Source of the DNA: an uncultured cyanobacterium
GTDB taxonomy: Bacteria > Cyanobacteriota > Cyanobacteriia > CAKZMO01
Length of the DNA stretch: 64,000 nucleotides
Reading direction: 5' to 3'
NCBI GenBank assembly: GCA_963719515.1
Contig: CAVRCJ010000015.1
Location: forward strand, 32,001-96,000
Positions 49,392 to 57,680 of the stretch are shown one piece after another. The notes under the pieces are model-generated. The model made no database searches and had not been told where the DNA came from. It saw nothing but the letters and a program-made list of their open reading frames with translations. Made by a program: the position numbers and the translations under genes. Within the stretch, counting starts at the first letter, position 1, and every line of letters starts with the position of its first letter.

Positions 49392-49808
49392 TTACCGGGA
49401 TCGCCCGTCGAGCCACTGCTGCAAAATTAGGGCGGCGGCCTTGCGGTCGACAGCGGCCTTATTTTGAGAGGGAGACTGGCGGGCCGCTATCATCATCTCC
49501 TCGGCCTCAACCGAGGTCAGCCGCTCATCGACGTACTCTATGGGCAAGTTGAGGGCGGTGCTCAGGCGCTTGGCCAACCGCTGCACCTGCTTTGCCTGCG
49601 AGCCGATTTCCCCATCTAGGGTGTAGGGCAGCCCTACCACCAACACCTCCACCTGACGCTCTGCGGTCAGCTGTTTGAGTAGAGCCACATCTTGGTCAAA
49701 CGAGCGTCTCTCCAAAGTCATTAAGCCGGTCGCCAATAACCCCAGGCGATCGCAGCCCGCGATCCCGATGCGCTTACGGCCAATGTCAAGTCCTAATGCG
49801 GAGACCAC
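49392..49808 (-). CDS. ruvX: Holliday junction resolvase-like RuvX/YqgF
   Basis: ALGLDIGRKRIGIA, VVGLP, VDERLTS.EA and D..AAALILQ.WL. Confidence 0.95.
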   Translation of the reverse strand: MVSALGLDIGRKRIGIAGCDRLGLLATGLMTLERRSFDQDVALLKQLTAERQVEVLVVGLPYTLDGEIGSQAKQVQRLAKRLSTALNLPIEYVDERLTSVEAEEMMIAARQSPSQNKAAVDRKAAALILQQWLDGRSR

Positions 49809-51133
49809 GCCCCGCCCTGCTCACCGCGACCGGTGCCGTAGTCACAGTCCCGTATCACACCCGAAGGATATCTAGAACCGGAATCTTGAGCCTGCTCGCG
49901 CCCGTCAGGAGAAGACGGCTCTGAAGATGGCGCAATGCCGTCCTCTTCGGGAGAAAGCTCTTCAAATAGCGATAGTCGCCCCGGAACGGGTTTGCGGCTG
50001 GGCTGAAGCCCCTGCAAAACTTCGACGAGCTGCAGGTTCTCTAGAGATACCGACTTAGTCTCCCGCATCTTATGCCACACGGAGCGGAACATCATCACCG
50101 TCTGCTGCTCTGGGGTTGCCCCAGTCTGCTTGAGGTAGGTTTCCCGCTCGGGCTGATAGTCAGAAGAGTCAAGCTCCAGCGACTGCTCCGGGTAGCTCTG
50201 CAGCAGCTGCGCCATTTGGGAGAGCAGCTCGGGATAGAGGTAAGTATAGGCGGGGTGAACCGTCAGCTGGGCGCTGTGGGGCTGACTGCCGTCTTTAGAA
50301 ATGCAGAGGTTGAAGTAACCGATGGCGGCTTTGCGCTGGGGCTCAAACACGTAGCCCTTCACGGTTTCTTGCTGAGCCATCAGCCGCTTAATGCTCGACA
50401 CTGCGCCTTGAGCGACACCAATGCTGAAGTCAGCAACATGACGGTCAAAAGCCTGCCGCACCAAAGGCGGCATGGATACGGTGTCGAGCTGATAGAGCAG
50501 TCGGGCGTCGGCGTTGCTCACCGGCCGGAGATTGGGAAGGTTGACGGGACGCTCTGATAAGGTGGCCAGAATCTGTGCGGAAAGGGACCAGTAGGTTTTT
50601 TGGGCTAGGGGCTGAAAGCCGTTGGTGCGATACAGGCCAATGCCGAGCTTATCGTTGACGTCCACCTCAACGAGCCAAATGCGGGCGCGCCAGATGATTT
50701 CCAGGCAGTGGCGCAGCAGCAGGGAGGCTGTATCTGTTGACAGACGCTTGCCCGGCAGCGCTTCAGCGCTAGACGAGCCGCTGTCGCGTTTAGCAAGGGA
50801 AGATCGCAGAGAATTGGTGGCCATGATGCGCTCGACGCGCCAGGTGGTGCTGGTTTTATTGAAGGGGGCAACTTGAACAAACCCTTCTAGCCCCTGCTGC
50901 CCTGCCGCAACGTAGGCGGAAAAGGCGTATTGAAACGGATTTGGAAACAGACTCAGGCACTTTAGAGGGCCATACCATTGGCGCACTAGTTCGAGCTGTT
51001 GCCCAATGCTGGCAGAGCGGCTGTAGCTCTCTGTTTCAAAGCCGCTCTCAGCTCGGATTAACCCATCAATCGCCTCTATATCGCGATAGTGAAGCGACCG
51101 AATCGTGAGGGGCGATTGAGGAGTTGGGGTCAT
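49793..51133 (-). CDS. Cyanobacterial GNAT-family N-acetyltransferase-like protein
   Basis: GNAT motif LYRTNGFQPLA, LLYQLDT..MPPLVRQ.FDR and YVFEPQRKAAIGYF. Lies directly upstream of ruvX. Confidence 0.82.
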   Translation of the reverse strand: MTPTPQSPLTIRSLHYRDIEAIDGLIRAESGFETESYSRSASIGQQLELVRQWYGPLKCLSLFPNPFQYAFSAYVAAGQQGLEGFVQVAPFNKTSTTWRVERIMATNSLRSSLAKRDSGSSSAEALPGKRLSTDTASLLLRHCLEIIWRARIWLVEVDVNDKLGIGLYRTNGFQPLAQKTYWSLSAQILATLSERPVNLPNLRPVSNADARLLYQLDTVSMPPLVRQAFDRHVADFSIGVAQGAVSSIKRLMAQQETVKGYVFEPQRKAAIGYFNLCISKDGSQPHSAQLTVHPAYTYLYPELLSQMAQLLQSYPEQSLELDSSDYQPERETYLKQTGATPEQQTVMMFRSVWHKMRETKSVSLENLQLVEVLQGLQPSRKPVPGRLSLFEELSPEEDGIAPSSEPSSPDGREQAQDSGSRYPSGVIRDCDYGTGRGEQGGAWSPH

Positions 51134-51157
51134 TAGATCACAGTTGAGTCAAGCTGG

Positions 51158-51549
51158 GTGACATCCTCCCGACGCTGACAGCAAGCTGTACAGCGCGGGC
51201 TTCCTCAGTGACTCCCAGCTATTGCCGGGACATATCCTGAGATAGGTTTATACTCCGCCTGATGCCCCACGGCAGAGTTTTGAATTTTCATCTCCGCGAG
51301 GGAGGATACGCACTATGTGTCGCAGATACATTTGCAAACTGAGGAACGGGTGACTTGCAGCTTTCGCCTACGGGCCCGTCACACTCTTTGCGGGGTGTAT
51401 CACCTTGCTATCTCTATCATACCAACTGCTAGCCTCAGCGCTGAGCGCACTATCCGCTGTGCATCATTTTGCGGGCGCACTTCGGCTAGCGCGACTCTCA
51501 TCCCGACGCTCACCCTAGCGGGTAGAGCGCGGGGCTTCCCGTCTAGTCG
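51158..51549 (-). mobile_element. Non-autonomous ~390 bp IS200/IS605 derivative (both ends, no tnpA or tnpB)
   Basis: Minus-strand left end ...GAAGCCCCGCGCTCTAC...AGCGTCGGGATG and right end GAAGCCCGCGCTGTAC...AGCGTCGGGAGGATGTCAC| closely match the ends of the 56261-57680 element. Confidence 0.8.
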
Positions 51550-51641
51550 CTAAACCTTAGCCAAACCACATACTTAGAAGCTAGCACATTTGGCCTTTAC
51601 AGTCTTCTACGCCCTGGCCTTCACCGTCTACGTCCTAAGGC

Positions 51642-52817
51642 TTATTGAGCCGGTCGGATCAAGACCACGGGCGTTTGCTCATCGGCATTGCCCGCCGGGT
51701 TGCTGAGTAGGGCCTCTCGCAACACCGTTTCTGAGAGGTCGGAGGAAGCAGCCAGCACTTTAACAGCCCGCAAATCGTTGACGTCCACGATCGCCGCCGA
51801 CAGGCCGGTTTCCTGCTTAATTTGATCAACAACCCGTTCAGGAGCCTGGGGCCCTAGCACAATGAACTGGTCATAAGGGGGCAGCGTTCCCGTGACGTCG
51901 TCGATTAGACGGGCCTGCTCCCCGGCAAACCGGTAGAATCCGCCGGGGCTCCCGAACACCTTTAGCGCTGACCCGCCGATGAAAGCCGCCATCACCCGCC
52001 AGGCCCCCACAATGTCTACTAGGGCCTGCAGACCGCAGGCGGTCGCCAAGCTTGACGTCGGCATAAAGTAATAGCACAGCCGCTTGGCCACCCACCCCGG
52101 CTTGATCTCGCTAGGATGACGCAAACGCCCCTGCATAATGGCCAGGGGCGTTTCGCCAATAGTGACAATATCGTGGGGCTGGGCGTGGGGGACAACGTAG
52201 CGCTTGACTACTTCTACAGGGTCATCCAGCGGGGAGAGCAGATGAGTGGGAACGGGAAACACCTCTCCAGCCGGGGTTGGCCGTGGGGCTAAAAGGCTGT
52301 CGTGATCGGGGAACGACAGGGGCACGATCACATGCCGCGTCTTGGGGATACGGCCCTCTGGGCCATAGGTGGTGTAGTGGACCTTCACCCAGGCCGATTT
52401 GAGCGATCGCAGATCGCTGCCCTTAATGTCAACGGTGACGGTGAGACCTGTGGTCTTGGCTACTTTAACGATGTAGGCAAACCAATAGCCATCAGGGCGG
52501 GCGTCGGCGTCCGGGTGGTGGGGCTGCACCGTCACCTCATGGGTGACGCCGCTCAGGTCAGTGGCGGCGAGCAGCGTCGCTTCAGCGGTGAGCTGAGGCA
52601 CCATAATTTCCAGGGTGCGGGTTTGGTTTTGCAGCTCCAGGGTCCCCACCAGTTTGTAGTGATCGGGCTCATGGACGGGCAGCTCCCAAGTTCCCAGGGT
52701 CATGGCCAGCTCGTTTCCCGGGCGGCGGCGATACTGCAGCTCAAACGCTATTACGCTTGCGAGCACTACGCCTAGTCCGATAAGAATTGCTCCGATTCCC
52801 GCACCAGCTTGGACCAT
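51642..52817 (-). CDS. F420-0:gamma-glutamyl ligase-like protein
   Basis: IGETPLAIMQGR, PTSSLATACG, ARLIDDVTGTLPPYD, AAIVDVNDL and NPAGNADEQTP. GGGGAG upstream of ATG 52817. Confidence 0.82.
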   Translation of the reverse strand: MVQAGAGIGAILIGLGVVLASVIAFELQYRRRPGNELAMTLGTWELPVHEPDHYKLVGTLELQNQTRTLEIMVPQLTAEATLLAATDLSGVTHEVTVQPHHPDADARPDGYWFAYIVKVAKTTGLTVTVDIKGSDLRSLKSAWVKVHYTTYGPEGRIPKTRHVIVPLSFPDHDSLLAPRPTPAGEVFPVPTHLLSPLDDPVEVVKRYVVPHAQPHDIVTIGETPLAIMQGRLRHPSEIKPGWVAKRLCYYFMPTSSLATACGLQALVDIVGAWRVMAAFIGGSALKVFGSPGGFYRFAGEQARLIDDVTGTLPPYDQFIVLGPQAPERVVDQIKQETGLSAAIVDVNDLRAVKVLAASSDLSETVLREALLSNPAGNADEQTPVVLIRPAQ

Positions 52818-53280
52818 CTCTACTCCCCAAATCCCAGACTCTTTACTCAGCTGCCTATAGACCGCCGACAGTCGCCCCAACAGCGATCGCCACAGCAGGC
52901 TGCGCCATGGCGTACTGTACCATGCCTCGACCTGCTGCTGACCCCACATCAATAGCCGATACATAGCGCTCAATCGTGGGTTTGTAGCGCAAGGTGACGA
53001 AGCATGCAGTACAATCGCTTAATATTGCTTAATAATTAAGAGCAAATTATTTAGCATCCAGGCCAGCTGCTCTAGCCCTACTCTTGATGGCAGTAGCTAT
53101 AGCAAAACAGCGCCCGCTGCGGCAGGCCGGGGCCATCAGCTCACTCAGTACCGCAGGGTATGCCGCAGAGTTAACAGCCTGTTTTTGAGTTTTGCTTTAC
53201 TTTGTAGAGTAGTTTCGTCTAAACCGCTTGAGATTATCACTTACTACATCTTCGCCCGTCGAGGTTTCTAAGGAATCGTA

Positions 53281-56260: not shown

Positions 56261-57680
56261 CTAGTTCGTGAAAGCCCCGCGCTGTACTCGGAGAGTCAGC
56301 GTCGGGATGTAAGCGAGCGAGTCACAGACGAGCATTTCTAGGGAGTAGCACTGCCCTTCCTAGAAATGCTACAATTGAGGTATGTTGACCTTGAACTACT
56401 CCTACCGAATTTATCCGTCTCTTGAGCAGGAAGCCCGCATGGTCTGTTGGCTTGAGATTTGTCGCGGCATCTATAACTATGCGCTGCGTGAACGCAAGGA
56501 CTGGATAAAGTCGAGAAGCTGCGTAGCTAATACCTGCTCGCTTCAATCGGAGTACATCATTGCGGCAAACGCGCCATATCCCGGTTACTACGACCAAAAG
56601 CGATCGCTGACGGCTGCTAAGAGAGTGCTTCCCCACCTGAAAGAAGTGCAGTCGCAGGTTCTTCAAGACGTTATAGGGCGGGTAGAAGCAGCGTTTGCGG
56701 CTAGGAAGGAGAGAGGTCACGGTTTCCCGCGCTTCAAGAAGTTTGGACAGTACCGCTCGTTCCTCTTTCCGCAGTTCAAGGAAAACCCGGTGACGGGCAG
56801 CCAAATCAAGCTGCCTAAGCTGGGCACGATGCGCATCGTTCTGCACCGCCCTATCCCTGATGGATTCAAAGTGAAAGACGGTGCGCGTCATCAAAAAGCA
56901 TTCGGGGTGGTACGCTACCCTATGCATTCAAGCCGATGTCAATGTGCCTGATGCTGTTCCCTATGGGGAGAGTATCGGCATTGACGTAGGGCTTGAATAC
57001 TTTCTGTCCACTTCCAACGGCTTGCAGGTAGAGCGCCCGCGCTTTTTCGGTAAGCTGCACCGCAAGCTTAAATTGCTGCAACGCAGACTGAAGAATAAGC
57101 AGCGGGGCTCGAATAACCGCGCCAAGCTGATTGGAAGGATTGGACGGGTACATGAGCAGATAGCAGCATGTCGCCTTGACTGGCAATTCAAGCTGGCCCA
57201 CAAGCTGTGTGACCAAGCCCAGATCATCTTCGTAGAAGACCTTGACTTTCGCATCATGGCGAAAGGGATGCTGGGTAAACACACTCTTGATGCTGGCTTG
57301 GGGCAGTTCATAAACCAGGTCTTGCCGTGGGTGTGCTTCAAGCGCGGCGTCTATTACGGCAAGGTTGACGCTTATGGTACTTCTCAGGAGTGCCCAGACT
57401 GCGGCGCTGTGGTCAAAAAATCGTGGGGCGATCGCGTTCATCGGTGTCATGAATGTGGGTCGCTCAAGCCGAGGGATATTGCCGCTGCTCAAGTCATCAA
57501 CGCCCGTGGAATTTCGGGTATTCAAATTGCCTGTGGAGCCGAGGTAGCGGGGATGTGGGAAGCCATATCTAGCCAACTGGCCCAGAAGCAGGAAACTCAT
57601 CGGGTGACCGATGAAGCCCGCGCTCTATCCGTAGGATGTTCGCAAAGCGCTTCCGCAGGAAGAACGTCGGGAGTATTCAC
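56261..57680 (+). mobile_element. IS200/IS605-family tnpB-only element
   Basis: Left end after TTTAG: CTAGTTCGTGAAAGCCCCGCGCTGTAC...AGCGTCGGGATG. Right end GAAGCCCGCGCTCTA...ACGTCGGGAGTATTCAC|. Left boundary approximate. Confidence 0.82.

What the first reader, a model, noticed from the sequence alone, without database searches (positions are those of the whole stretch)
51158..51549. Protein-free IS605 mini-element that may express a stand-alone omegaRNA and read into a core gene cluster
Seen: about 390 bp bounded by the same end motifs as the tnpB element at 56261-57680 (AAGCCC(C)GCGCT(C/G)TA...CGTCGGGA), both preceded by TTTAG and both ending TCAC. It has no tnpA or tnpB. It has an extended -10-like TGGTATGAT (minus strand, ~51415-51423) followed by about 250 nt with hairpins (e.g. 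GTGAC...GCGAAAGC...GTCAC). The right end lies 24 bp from the GNAT start codon. Known: TnpB omegaRNAs derive from the right end plus flanking DNA, and GAAG/TCAC fits the IS608 guide-pairing rule. Inference: the element could make a trans-acting guide RNA (spacer about CCAGCTTGACTCAACT) for TnpB encoded elsewhere. It may also supply the promoter or leader for GNAT-ruvX-DUF3727-mltG-yqeG-proB.
Basis: partly seen in the sequence, partly recalled or inferred. Interest (0 to 1): 0.72.

Follow-up and report, generated by a model that had tools for sequence, protein, structure and literature searches.

The report
High-copy guide-RNA mini-transposon, unknown leader
This stretch is one of many near-identical copies of a protein-less jumping element in a cyanobacterium, which keeps a likely promoter and an intact guide-RNA scaffold for a nuclease encoded elsewhere (a known kind of element), and also carries an unexplained folded RNA segment shared with related elements in distant cyanobacteria.

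Summary
Real. The 392-bp element is one of 53 copies (97-100% identical) of an ORF-less IS605 derivative (PATE/MITE). All follow TTAG and end TCAC. Its parent is not the frameshifted tnpB at 56261 but a family outside the window (17 full-length TnpB copies, 2 intact tnpA). It keeps a complete TnpB omegaRNA scaffold (three stem-loops plus pseudoknot, covarying) and a -10 box at a fixed position in 17 of 18 homologs. Most likely it borrows TnpA to move and TnpB to guard its own empty site. No RNA data test this. It is not the GNAT-ruvX operon's native promoter: four congeners lack it there and keep a conserved -10 upstream of the insertion. omegaRNA-carrying PATEs are in print (Meers 2023), and this scan noted such elements on other DNA, including another family in this genome. 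New here is a ~60-70-nt leader hairpin with no Rfam match. It occurs in 16 genomes from 7 cyanobacterial families, only in ORF-less elements, and is joined to two different scaffold subtypes. Its function is untested; my best guess is that it stabilises the RNA or hands it to TnpB.

The parts
51550..51554 (-). Target motif (TAM) TTTAG, host DNA just outside the left end
   Evidence: 53 of 53 copies follow TTAG, 47 follow TTTAG
51490..51549 (-). Left end: DNA guide AAGC (51537-51534) and subterminal hairpin (51533-51502), the TnpA-binding end
   Evidence: 57/60 identical to the tnpA+tnpB parent; family B in the same genome has AAGT with TAM TTTAA; the pairing rule is recalled from IS608
51429..51489 (-). 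GC-rich spacer hairpin between left end and promoter, possibly an insulator
   Evidence: self-complementarity seen in the sequence; unrelated GC-rich hairpins lie at the same place in homologs (by eye); role inferred
51416..51424 (-). Extended -10 box TGGTATGAT, the predicted promoter of the element's RNA; no -35
   Evidence: strict TA...T hexamer at a subfamily-fixed distance from the leader core in 17 of 18 homologs, background 0.0067 per position; the sigma-70 scan, which needs a -35, missed it
51279..51409 (-). About 130-nt leader of the predicted transcript; absent from the parent IS
   Evidence: start site inferred about 6-7 nt after the -10
51334..51391 (-). Conserved irregular hairpin, the leader core (motif GACCCGTAGGC-N3/4-GCYGCAAGTC in relatives)
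   Evidence: no Rfam match
51252..51278 (-). omegaRNA stem-loop 1 (nexus); its loop 51266-51262 pairs with 51164-51160 (pseudoknot)
51204..51241 (-). omegaRNA stem-loop 2
51158..51203 (-). Right end: DNA guide GAAG (51203-51200), hairpin (51199-51168, also omegaRNA stem-loop 3), pseudoknot 3' strand and terminal TCAC
   Evidence: 53/61 identical to the parent over the last 60 nt
51138..51157 (-). 3' flank = predicted guide; matches only this element's own empty site
   Evidence: best other NTTAG-adjacent seed is 8 nt; empty orthologous site in congeners
51578..51586 (-). Native extended -10-like box of the GNAT-ruvX operon, 28 nt upstream of the insertion point
   Evidence: conserved in G000 and in 4 of 4 congeners that lack the element; function inferred
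49793..51133 (-). Cyanobacterial GNAT-like gene (446 aa), first of GNAT-ruvX-DUF3727-mltG-yqeG-proB; the element sits in its predicted 5' UTR
56261..57680 (+). Neighbouring IS1341-type element with frameshifted tnpB (two ORFs) and a different scaffold subtype; shown for comparison, not the partner

Best explanation
A non-autonomous IS605 element (PATE/MITE) that parasitises both enzymes of a resident IS605 family. Shown: it has amplified to 53 copies at TTAG sites without target duplication and shares its ends with a tnpA+tnpB family in the same genome. Inferred: that family's TnpA excises and inserts it as single-stranded DNA. Inferred: its own extended -10 promoter makes an RNA of about 250 nt plus flank (leader, omegaRNA scaffold, then host flank as guide). 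TnpB made from the 17 full-length parent copies loads this RNA and cuts the empty donor joint (TTTAG + flank) after excision, so that repair from a sister chromosome restores the element. The conserved leader most likely does for this untranslated RNA what the translated tnpB reading frame does for the parent RNA: it protects the 5' end or helps hand the RNA to TnpB, which may then trim it off. That last step is the weakest (about 0.4). The insertion in front of the GNAT gene is one tolerated intergenic landing among many.
For: 53 copies, all TTAG|...TCAC with unrelated flanks. Empty orthologous site in 4 of 4 congeners. Parent family: 2 intact tnpA and 17 full-length stop-free TnpB (one with a 7-aa deletion); the query carries D205, E289, D368. 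All defining omegaRNA features of PMC10690162 are present. In 9 ORF-less elements 94.1% of cells pair, 10 of 42 pairs change on both sides, 0/500 shuffles reach this, and slid controls pair 34-44%. With 13 tnpB 3' ends added, 20 of 42 pairs change on both sides. RNAalifold found the pseudoknot helix unprompted. -10 box at a fixed distance in 17 of 18 homologs. Stem-loops 1 and 2 lie outside the terminal hairpin, so TnpA alone would not explain them (inference). Trans-binding of TnpB to a mini-element omegaRNA was shown for an IStron (passages). TnpB trims the 5' part of its precursor (passages).
Against: Near-complete genomes G022, G471 and G260 carry 1-2 copies, yet no tnpB with a closely matching right end was found there with these queries, so some copies may be relics or act without a cognate TnpB. 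The scaffold is only 92/127 identical to the parent's last 120 nt, so loading is unproven. The leader core is mostly invariant: 1 of 8 core pairs changes on both sides, 6 of 18 with the basal stem, and its folding z-scores are weak (-0.85 to -1.55). Recent horizontal spread could explain part of its conservation. The shuffle control ignores relatedness. No complementarity of the leader to parent tnpA or tnpB beyond shuffles.
Confidence: 0.7

Rival explanations
1. The RNA is made but acts as a decoy or adaptor rather than a cutting guide. The leader binds a host or element protein, and the scaffold titrates TnpB, damping its nuclease or its effect on transposition and so allowing the 53-copy burst.
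For: Invariant unpaired letters in the leader suggest a binding surface. Mini-elements outnumber full-length cognate tnpB copies 53 to 17. Single copies persist where no close cognate tnpB was found.
Against: The pseudoknot reported as essential for cleavage in CboTnpB is kept. 0 of 53 guides have a TTTAG + 12-nt target elsewhere against 4.4 expected (P about 0.01), as expected if the guides cut, though the control was uninformative.
Confidence: 0.12
2. The conserved folds act on single-stranded DNA (transpososome or excised circle), or are left-overs. The element is a plain deletion derivative whose RNA does nothing.
For: The top strand is both the transcribed and the excised strand. The leader core can also fold on the opposite strand. 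Related elements may simply be recent horizontal transfers.
Against: The interior (element nt ~61-270) has no match in the parent, so it is not a simple deletion. The fixed -10 box is kept while neighbouring spacer DNA diverges. Changes in the core are mostly G-C/A-U to G-U on the transcribed strand (7 cells, against 1 A-C). The pseudoknot and stem-loop 1 covary. The same leader is joined to two scaffold subtypes that each match a different tnpB lineage.
Confidence: 0.08
3. The leader is a self-cleaving ribozyme or ligand-sensing switch that matures or gates the guide RNA.
For: A compact domain with near-invariant internal loops sits just after the predicted start site; its terminal loop varies in sequence and length (3-4 nt), which also breaks any reading frame.
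Against: No Rfam family at E <= 10 for the window element, and none over the elements in 11 loci at E <= 1. No pseudoknot or multi-way junction was predicted in the core.
Confidence: 0.06
4. One reading: the element has been domesticated as promoter or leader of GNAT-ruvX-DUF3727-mltG-yqeG-proB.
For: It lies between the native -10 and the ATG, 24 bp from the start codon, and no top-strand terminator was found, so read-through from its promoter is likely. 9 of 29 co-oriented copies lie within 60 bp of a start, against 18% expected (P = 0.06).
Against: It is absent at this site in 4 of 4 congeners, which keep the native -10. This copy is 98-99.5% identical to most others, so it is young. No orientation bias across copies (P = 0.64).
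Confidence: 0.04

Closest known systems
PATE-like ORF-less IS605 elements of Geobacillus stearothermophilus (Meers et al. 2023, 10.1101/2023.03.14.532601; passages read)
   Same: No protein genes, IS605 left and right ends with TAM/TEM and DNA guides. The paper says PATEs often encode omegaRNAs that must be acted on in trans by TnpB from other elements.
   Different: The passages read describe no dedicated promoter or conserved 5' leader and no test of a PATE RNA (Extended Data Fig. 2e not seen). Here there are 53 copies in one genome and a leader shared across 7 cyanobacterial families.
PATEs as defined in the IS605 superfamily (Kapitonov et al. 2016, PMC4810608; passages)
   Same: Short non-autonomous protein-less elements moved by the Y1 transposase, with no target duplication.
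   Different: No guide-RNA role is described in the passages read.
TnpB omegaRNA scaffold (Zedaveinyte et al. 2023, PMC10690162, passages; Nety et al. 2023, PMC10278001, passages)
   Same: Three stem-loops before the guide, with the nexus loop pairing to the scaffold 3' end. About 120 nt here, against a 126-nt processed RNA for AmaTnpB.
   Different: There the RNA is cut from the tnpB mRNA; here it would come from a non-coding precursor with a structured leader.
Stand-alone omegaRNAs acting in trans with IscB (Altae-Tran et al. 2021; recalled, not read)
   Same: A guide RNA locus without its nuclease gene.
   Different: The IscB scaffold has a 5' guide; this one has a TnpB scaffold and a 3' guide, and the HEARO model was not matched.

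Membership tests
IS200/IS605 PATE (non-autonomous) | Subterminal hairpins at both ends | tested here: met
IS200/IS605 PATE (non-autonomous) | Insertion 3' of a fixed 4-5 nt motif, no target duplication, fixed terminal tetranucleotide | tested here: met
   53 of 53 TTAG|...TCAC; empty orthologous site
IS200/IS605 PATE (non-autonomous) | No tnpA or tnpB coding capacity | tested here: met
   the only ORF of 60 aa or more inside it is an antisense 78-aa frame without a Pfam hit; tblastn finds only the tnpB tail inside the scaffold and the tnpA tail in the left end
IS200/IS605 PATE (non-autonomous) | Cognate TnpA available in the genome | tested here: met
   2 intact tnpA in elements with matching ends
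IS200/IS605 PATE (non-autonomous) | Mobilised by TnpA in trans | not testable with these tools
   inferred from copy number and end identity
TnpB omegaRNA | Three stem-loops plus nexus-to-3'-end pseudoknot before the guide | tested here: met
   definition
TnpB omegaRNA | Scaffold ends at the transposon right end, with the flank as guide | tested here: met
TnpB omegaRNA | Transcribed | tested here: inconclusive
   conserved -10 in 17 of 18 homologs; no transcript data examined
TnpB omegaRNA | Bound by TnpB and guides TAM-dependent cleavage | not testable with these tools
   needs RIP-seq or an interference assay; self-target depletion is suggestive only
Known Rfam families (riboswitches, ribozymes, HEARO, IS605-linked motifs) for the leader | Covariance-model match | tested here: not met
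IStron (IS605 plus group I intron) | Group I intron core inside the element | tested here: not met
   no Rfam match in the element; the leader is only about 130 nt

The most novel reading that the evidence does not exclude
The leader is a new functional RNA domain that defines a long-lived lineage of guide-only parasites. These are not decay products of local IS605 elements. They carry a dedicated promoter and loading or processing module, and have exchanged (or co-diverged with) the downstream scaffold to fit whichever TnpB the host offers. That would let an untranslated RNA out-compete guides made in cis and outnumber the nuclease genes about three to one. If so, the leader would be a natural module for loading guides onto TnpB in trans.
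Probability: 0.35. Interest if true: 0.72.

Novelty: new variant of a known kind. Interest (0 to 1): 0.5.

Why it matters
That PATEs use omegaRNAs with TnpB supplied in trans is stated in Meers 2023, but I found no test of it in the passages read. This genome makes it directly testable: 53 near-identical cassettes with 53 different guides, a clear cognate TnpB and TnpA, and a natural empty site. The leader raises the open question of how a guide RNA that is not cut from the tnpB mRNA is stabilised and loaded, which bears on TnpB guide design. For the host, an element that has landed 43 of 53 times between genes and carries an outward-reading promoter is a source of regulatory variation, here in front of ruvX-mltG-proB.

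Tried and rejected
RNA evidence: no RNA holder listed, which says nothing about expression. Laying 4 DNA contig sets of one study showed much higher depth over the element than over its flanks and no joint skipping it. This is not independent and not a copy number.

Rfam: nothing in the window at gathering threshold, nothing at E <= 10 in 51100-51620, and only tRNAs and chance hits outside the elements in 11 loci.

Other collections: no match in plasmids for two queries. The 5 viral pattern hits are one repeated coding stretch, i.e. chance.

Leader elsewhere: the model found nothing in tnpB elements. It gave exactly 53 hits in the own genome, all copies of this family (150 of 1653 candidates scored). 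In 21 and 44 further loci the only significant hits were copies of this family. Families B and C did not match it.

Leader as antisense to the parent tnpA/tnpB: duplex energies equal shuffles, and no word of 15 nt or more is shared with the rest of the genome. Leader as coding: the 3/4-nt loop breaks any frame. Likenesses to twister-sister, HDV-like ribozymes, group II intron domain V and the fluoride riboswitch were judged by eye from recall and dropped.

Guides aimed at other loci: none. Self-target depletion: 0 of 53 vs 4.4 expected, and 0 of 103 paired IS605 elements of all families, 50 of them from this family. But non-IS605 repeats also rarely sit in multi-copy DNA and were too few, so the test is inconclusive.

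Orientation bias toward downstream genes: none. The gene calls came from my own simple caller (4247 genes, 78% coding).

Papers read in passages with nothing on this point: PMC13565253, PMC12558985, 10.64898/2026.09.24.754181, 10.1101/2025.08.27.672191. A sequence look-up in earlier scan findings gave nothing.

Full report
1. Observation. The element runs 51549->51158 on the minus strand (392 bp), after TTTAG and ending TCAC, 24 bp before the ATG at 51133. TGGTATGAT is at 51424-51416. BLAST of the laid genome (5.28 Mb, 21 contigs) gives 53 full-length copies at 96.9-100% identity (33 distinct sequences). All 53 follow TTAG (47 TTTAG, 3 GTTAG, 3 CTTAG) and end TCAC, with unrelated flanks and no target duplication. 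The feature is real and recently amplified.

2. Parent and partners. The ends match a family outside the window: 1780-1801-bp tnpA+tnpB elements and 1483-bp tnpB-only elements (19 paired). Identity to the parent is 57/60 over the first 60 nt and 53/61 over the last 60, against 44/63 and 34/63 for the tnpB element at 56261-57680. That neighbour is frameshifted into two ORFs and has another scaffold subtype. The cognate family has 17 full-length, stop-free TnpB copies (398 aa; one with a 7-aa deletion; D205, E289, D368 in the query; NF040570 at 298 bits) and 2 intact tnpA (NF033573). A third tnpA is frameshifted at its start. The DNA guides fit their targets under the IS608 pairing rule (rule recalled; the principle is in Meers 2023 passages): GAAG with TCAC and AAGC with TTAG. 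A sister family here has AAGT with TTTAA. Element nt ~61-270 has no match in the parent, so this is not a simple internal deletion.

3. The site. All 4 same-genus genomes hold the GNAT-like gene and lack the element in front of it. They keep a conserved extended -10-like box, which in G000 lies at 51586-51578, 28 nt upstream of the insertion point. The element has therefore landed in a predicted 5' UTR. With my own simple gene caller, 43 of 53 copies are intergenic against 39% of TTTAG sites (P = 6e-10). Of these, 29 of 43 face a co-oriented downstream gene against 63% expected (P = 0.64), and 9 of 29 lie within 60 bp of a start against 18% (P = 0.06). Read-through into the operon is plausible because no top-strand terminator was found, but nothing indicates domestication.

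4. The omegaRNA scaffold. The last ~121 nt fold into three stem-loops (z = -4.69), and the first loop is complementary to the 5 nt before the terminal AC. This is the architecture that PMC10690162 calls universal for TnpB omegaRNAs, with a pseudoknot needed for cleavage by CboTnpB (passages). On 9 ORF-less elements (one copy of this family plus 8 from other genomes, chosen for the same compact subtype out of 16 extracted), 94.1% of cells pair and 10 of 42 pairs change on both sides. No shuffle of 500 reaches either value, and slid controls pair 34-44%. The pseudoknot is 97.8% paired but varies on one side only. Adding 13 tnpB 3' ends gives 88.0% and 20 of 42; one row is misaligned in stem-loop 1, and one pseudoknot position is unpaired in 7 of 22. 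RNAalifold picked the pseudoknot helix itself on a 15-sequence alignment. These shuffles ignore relatedness, and I derived the structure from one of the sequences. The scaffold is 92/127 identical to the parent's last 120 nt. An exact pattern from its first hairpin found 5 genome and 1 metagenome loci; no tnpB-sized ORF was seen upstream of the 5, two of which are cut short by contig ends.

5. Promoter. In 17 of 18 homologs a strict TA...T hexamer (4 of 6 or better) lies 38, 41-42 or 68-71 nt before the leader core, depending on subfamily. The background rate is 47 in 7017 positions, and the exception is a degenerate copy. Two homologs have the perfect TGGTATAAT. No -35 is evident, and the sigma-70 scan missed the site. 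No transcript was examined.

6. The leader, the unexplained part. Between promoter and scaffold lie about 130 nt containing an irregular hairpin. An exact pattern for its core hit 12 of 401 genomes of the class (G000 included), in 7 families, with 0 hits for the reversed control. DNA searches added more, for 16 genomes in all. In all 26 loci checked there is no tnpB gene within 700 bp upstream (three are cut short by contig ends), and the right end follows 183-211 nt after the core in the 24 where it is assembled. A left end was seen by eye in most; it is missing or decayed in G075, G104 and one G131 copy. A covariance model gave 53 hits in G000, all this family, and hits in 8 of 150, 3 of 7 and 1 of 57 genomes in further searches, all among those already known. 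It gave none in tnpB elements. Rfam has no match.

The same core precedes two unrelated-looking scaffold subtypes, and each has a tnpB counterpart: the G000 family, and L224, whose TnpB is 52-57% identical to it. So the leader was kept while the scaffold was exchanged or diverged. Structure support is modest. Over 17 sequences 88.8% of cells pair and 6 of 18 pairs change on both sides (0/500 shuffles), but the inner core is nearly invariant (1 of 8 pairs) and folding z-scores are -0.85 to -1.55. One-sided changes in the core are G-U on the transcribed strand in 7 cells against 1 A-C, which favours that strand. Two other ORF-less families in this genome (B, 6 copies; C, 19 copies) and a lineage in other cyanobacteria (L035, L037, L039, L040) have the same plan of -10 box, 90-150-nt leader and scaffold, but leaders that the model does not match. 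Some structured 5' part therefore seems to be needed repeatedly (inference).

7. Targets. No guide among the 53 has more than a 10-nt seed match next to an NTTAG site elsewhere; this copy's best is 8 nt. None has a TTTAG + 12-nt target against 4.4 expected (P about 0.01), but the non-IS605 control was too small and showed the same tendency. The guides point only at their own empty sites. 'Trans' applies to the protein supply, not to the target.

8. Mechanism. Shown: element anatomy, amplification, empty site, cognate enzymes, conserved scaffold, promoter box and leader. From established work: TnpA peel-and-paste excision loses elements, and TnpB cleavage of the donor joint restores them (Meers 2023 passages); TnpB trims the 5' part of its precursor (Nety 2023 passages); TnpB can bind a mini-element RNA in trans. 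Inferred: this element uses both enzymes in trans (about 0.75 for the TnpB arm), and the leader stabilises or delivers the untranslated RNA (about 0.4). Against: near-complete G022, G471 and G260 hold 1-2 copies without a closely matching tnpB found by these queries, and loading of a diverged scaffold is unproven.

9. What is known. PATEs are defined (PMC4810608 passages), and Meers 2023 states that they often encode omegaRNAs acted on in trans. Earlier scan notes report such elements in a phage and in archaea, and a different family in this genome with its own conserved front domain (unchecked notes). Eight literature searches turned up no description of this leader or of a promoter-leader-scaffold plan in cyanobacterial PATEs. 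The library lacks most subscription papers, and I did not see the figures or supplements of Meers 2023 or the Altae-Tran 2021 paper, where such elements could be listed.

10. Verdict. A member of the IS605 PATE class that most likely works as a self-guarding guide-RNA cassette. It is a new variant because of the conserved, unclassified leader and the high copy number. Interest 0.5.

Noticed in passing
L196, L200 (G022) and L199, L202, L204 (G050): Right-end-only pieces of about 93 bp of the related mini-element sit directly after TTTAG with no left end. Each starts just after an internal TCAC at the end of stem-loop 1, suggesting that TnpA can cut there and insert a one-hairpin circle.
   Followed up: partly
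G000:C10:332124-332545 (family B, 6 copies) and G000:C3:735154-734706 (family C, 19 copies): Two more ORF-less IS605 families with a -10 box, their own leaders and a longer scaffold resembling the window's tnpB type. Family B pairs guide AAGT with TAM TTTAA.
   Followed up: partly
L139/L158 (G104) and L198 (G131): Promoter, leader and scaffold are kept at the same site in two species, in front of a gene that looks by eye like a SasA-type histidine kinase, while the left end has decayed; a possible domestication.
   Followed up: no
L009:1200-1620 and L048 (G008): ORF-less IS605-ended elements whose leaders contain words that recall cyanobacterial CRISPR leader or tracrRNA sequences (recalled, by eye); no Rfam match.
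   Followed up: no
window 56261-57680: The tnpB is frameshifted near 56880-56950; several sister copies elsewhere in the genome are intact.
   Followed up: partly
G000:C13:120428-118817: A 1483-bp parent copy carries an extra ~129-bp insert, a small inverted-repeat element found about 6 times elsewhere in the genome, in its left part.
   Followed up: no
G000:C10:707000-705518 and C9:14570-16052: Two parent copies share both flanks, i.e. a segmental duplication that includes the element.
   Followed up: no
whole genome G000: Very TnpB-rich: 98 tblastn matches from many families with different right ends.
   Followed up: no
window 51645-52973 (-): The 443-aa gene upstream of the element has no Pfam or NCBIfam hit but is conserved (82-86%) in the same position in 3 of 4 congeners.
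   Followed up: no
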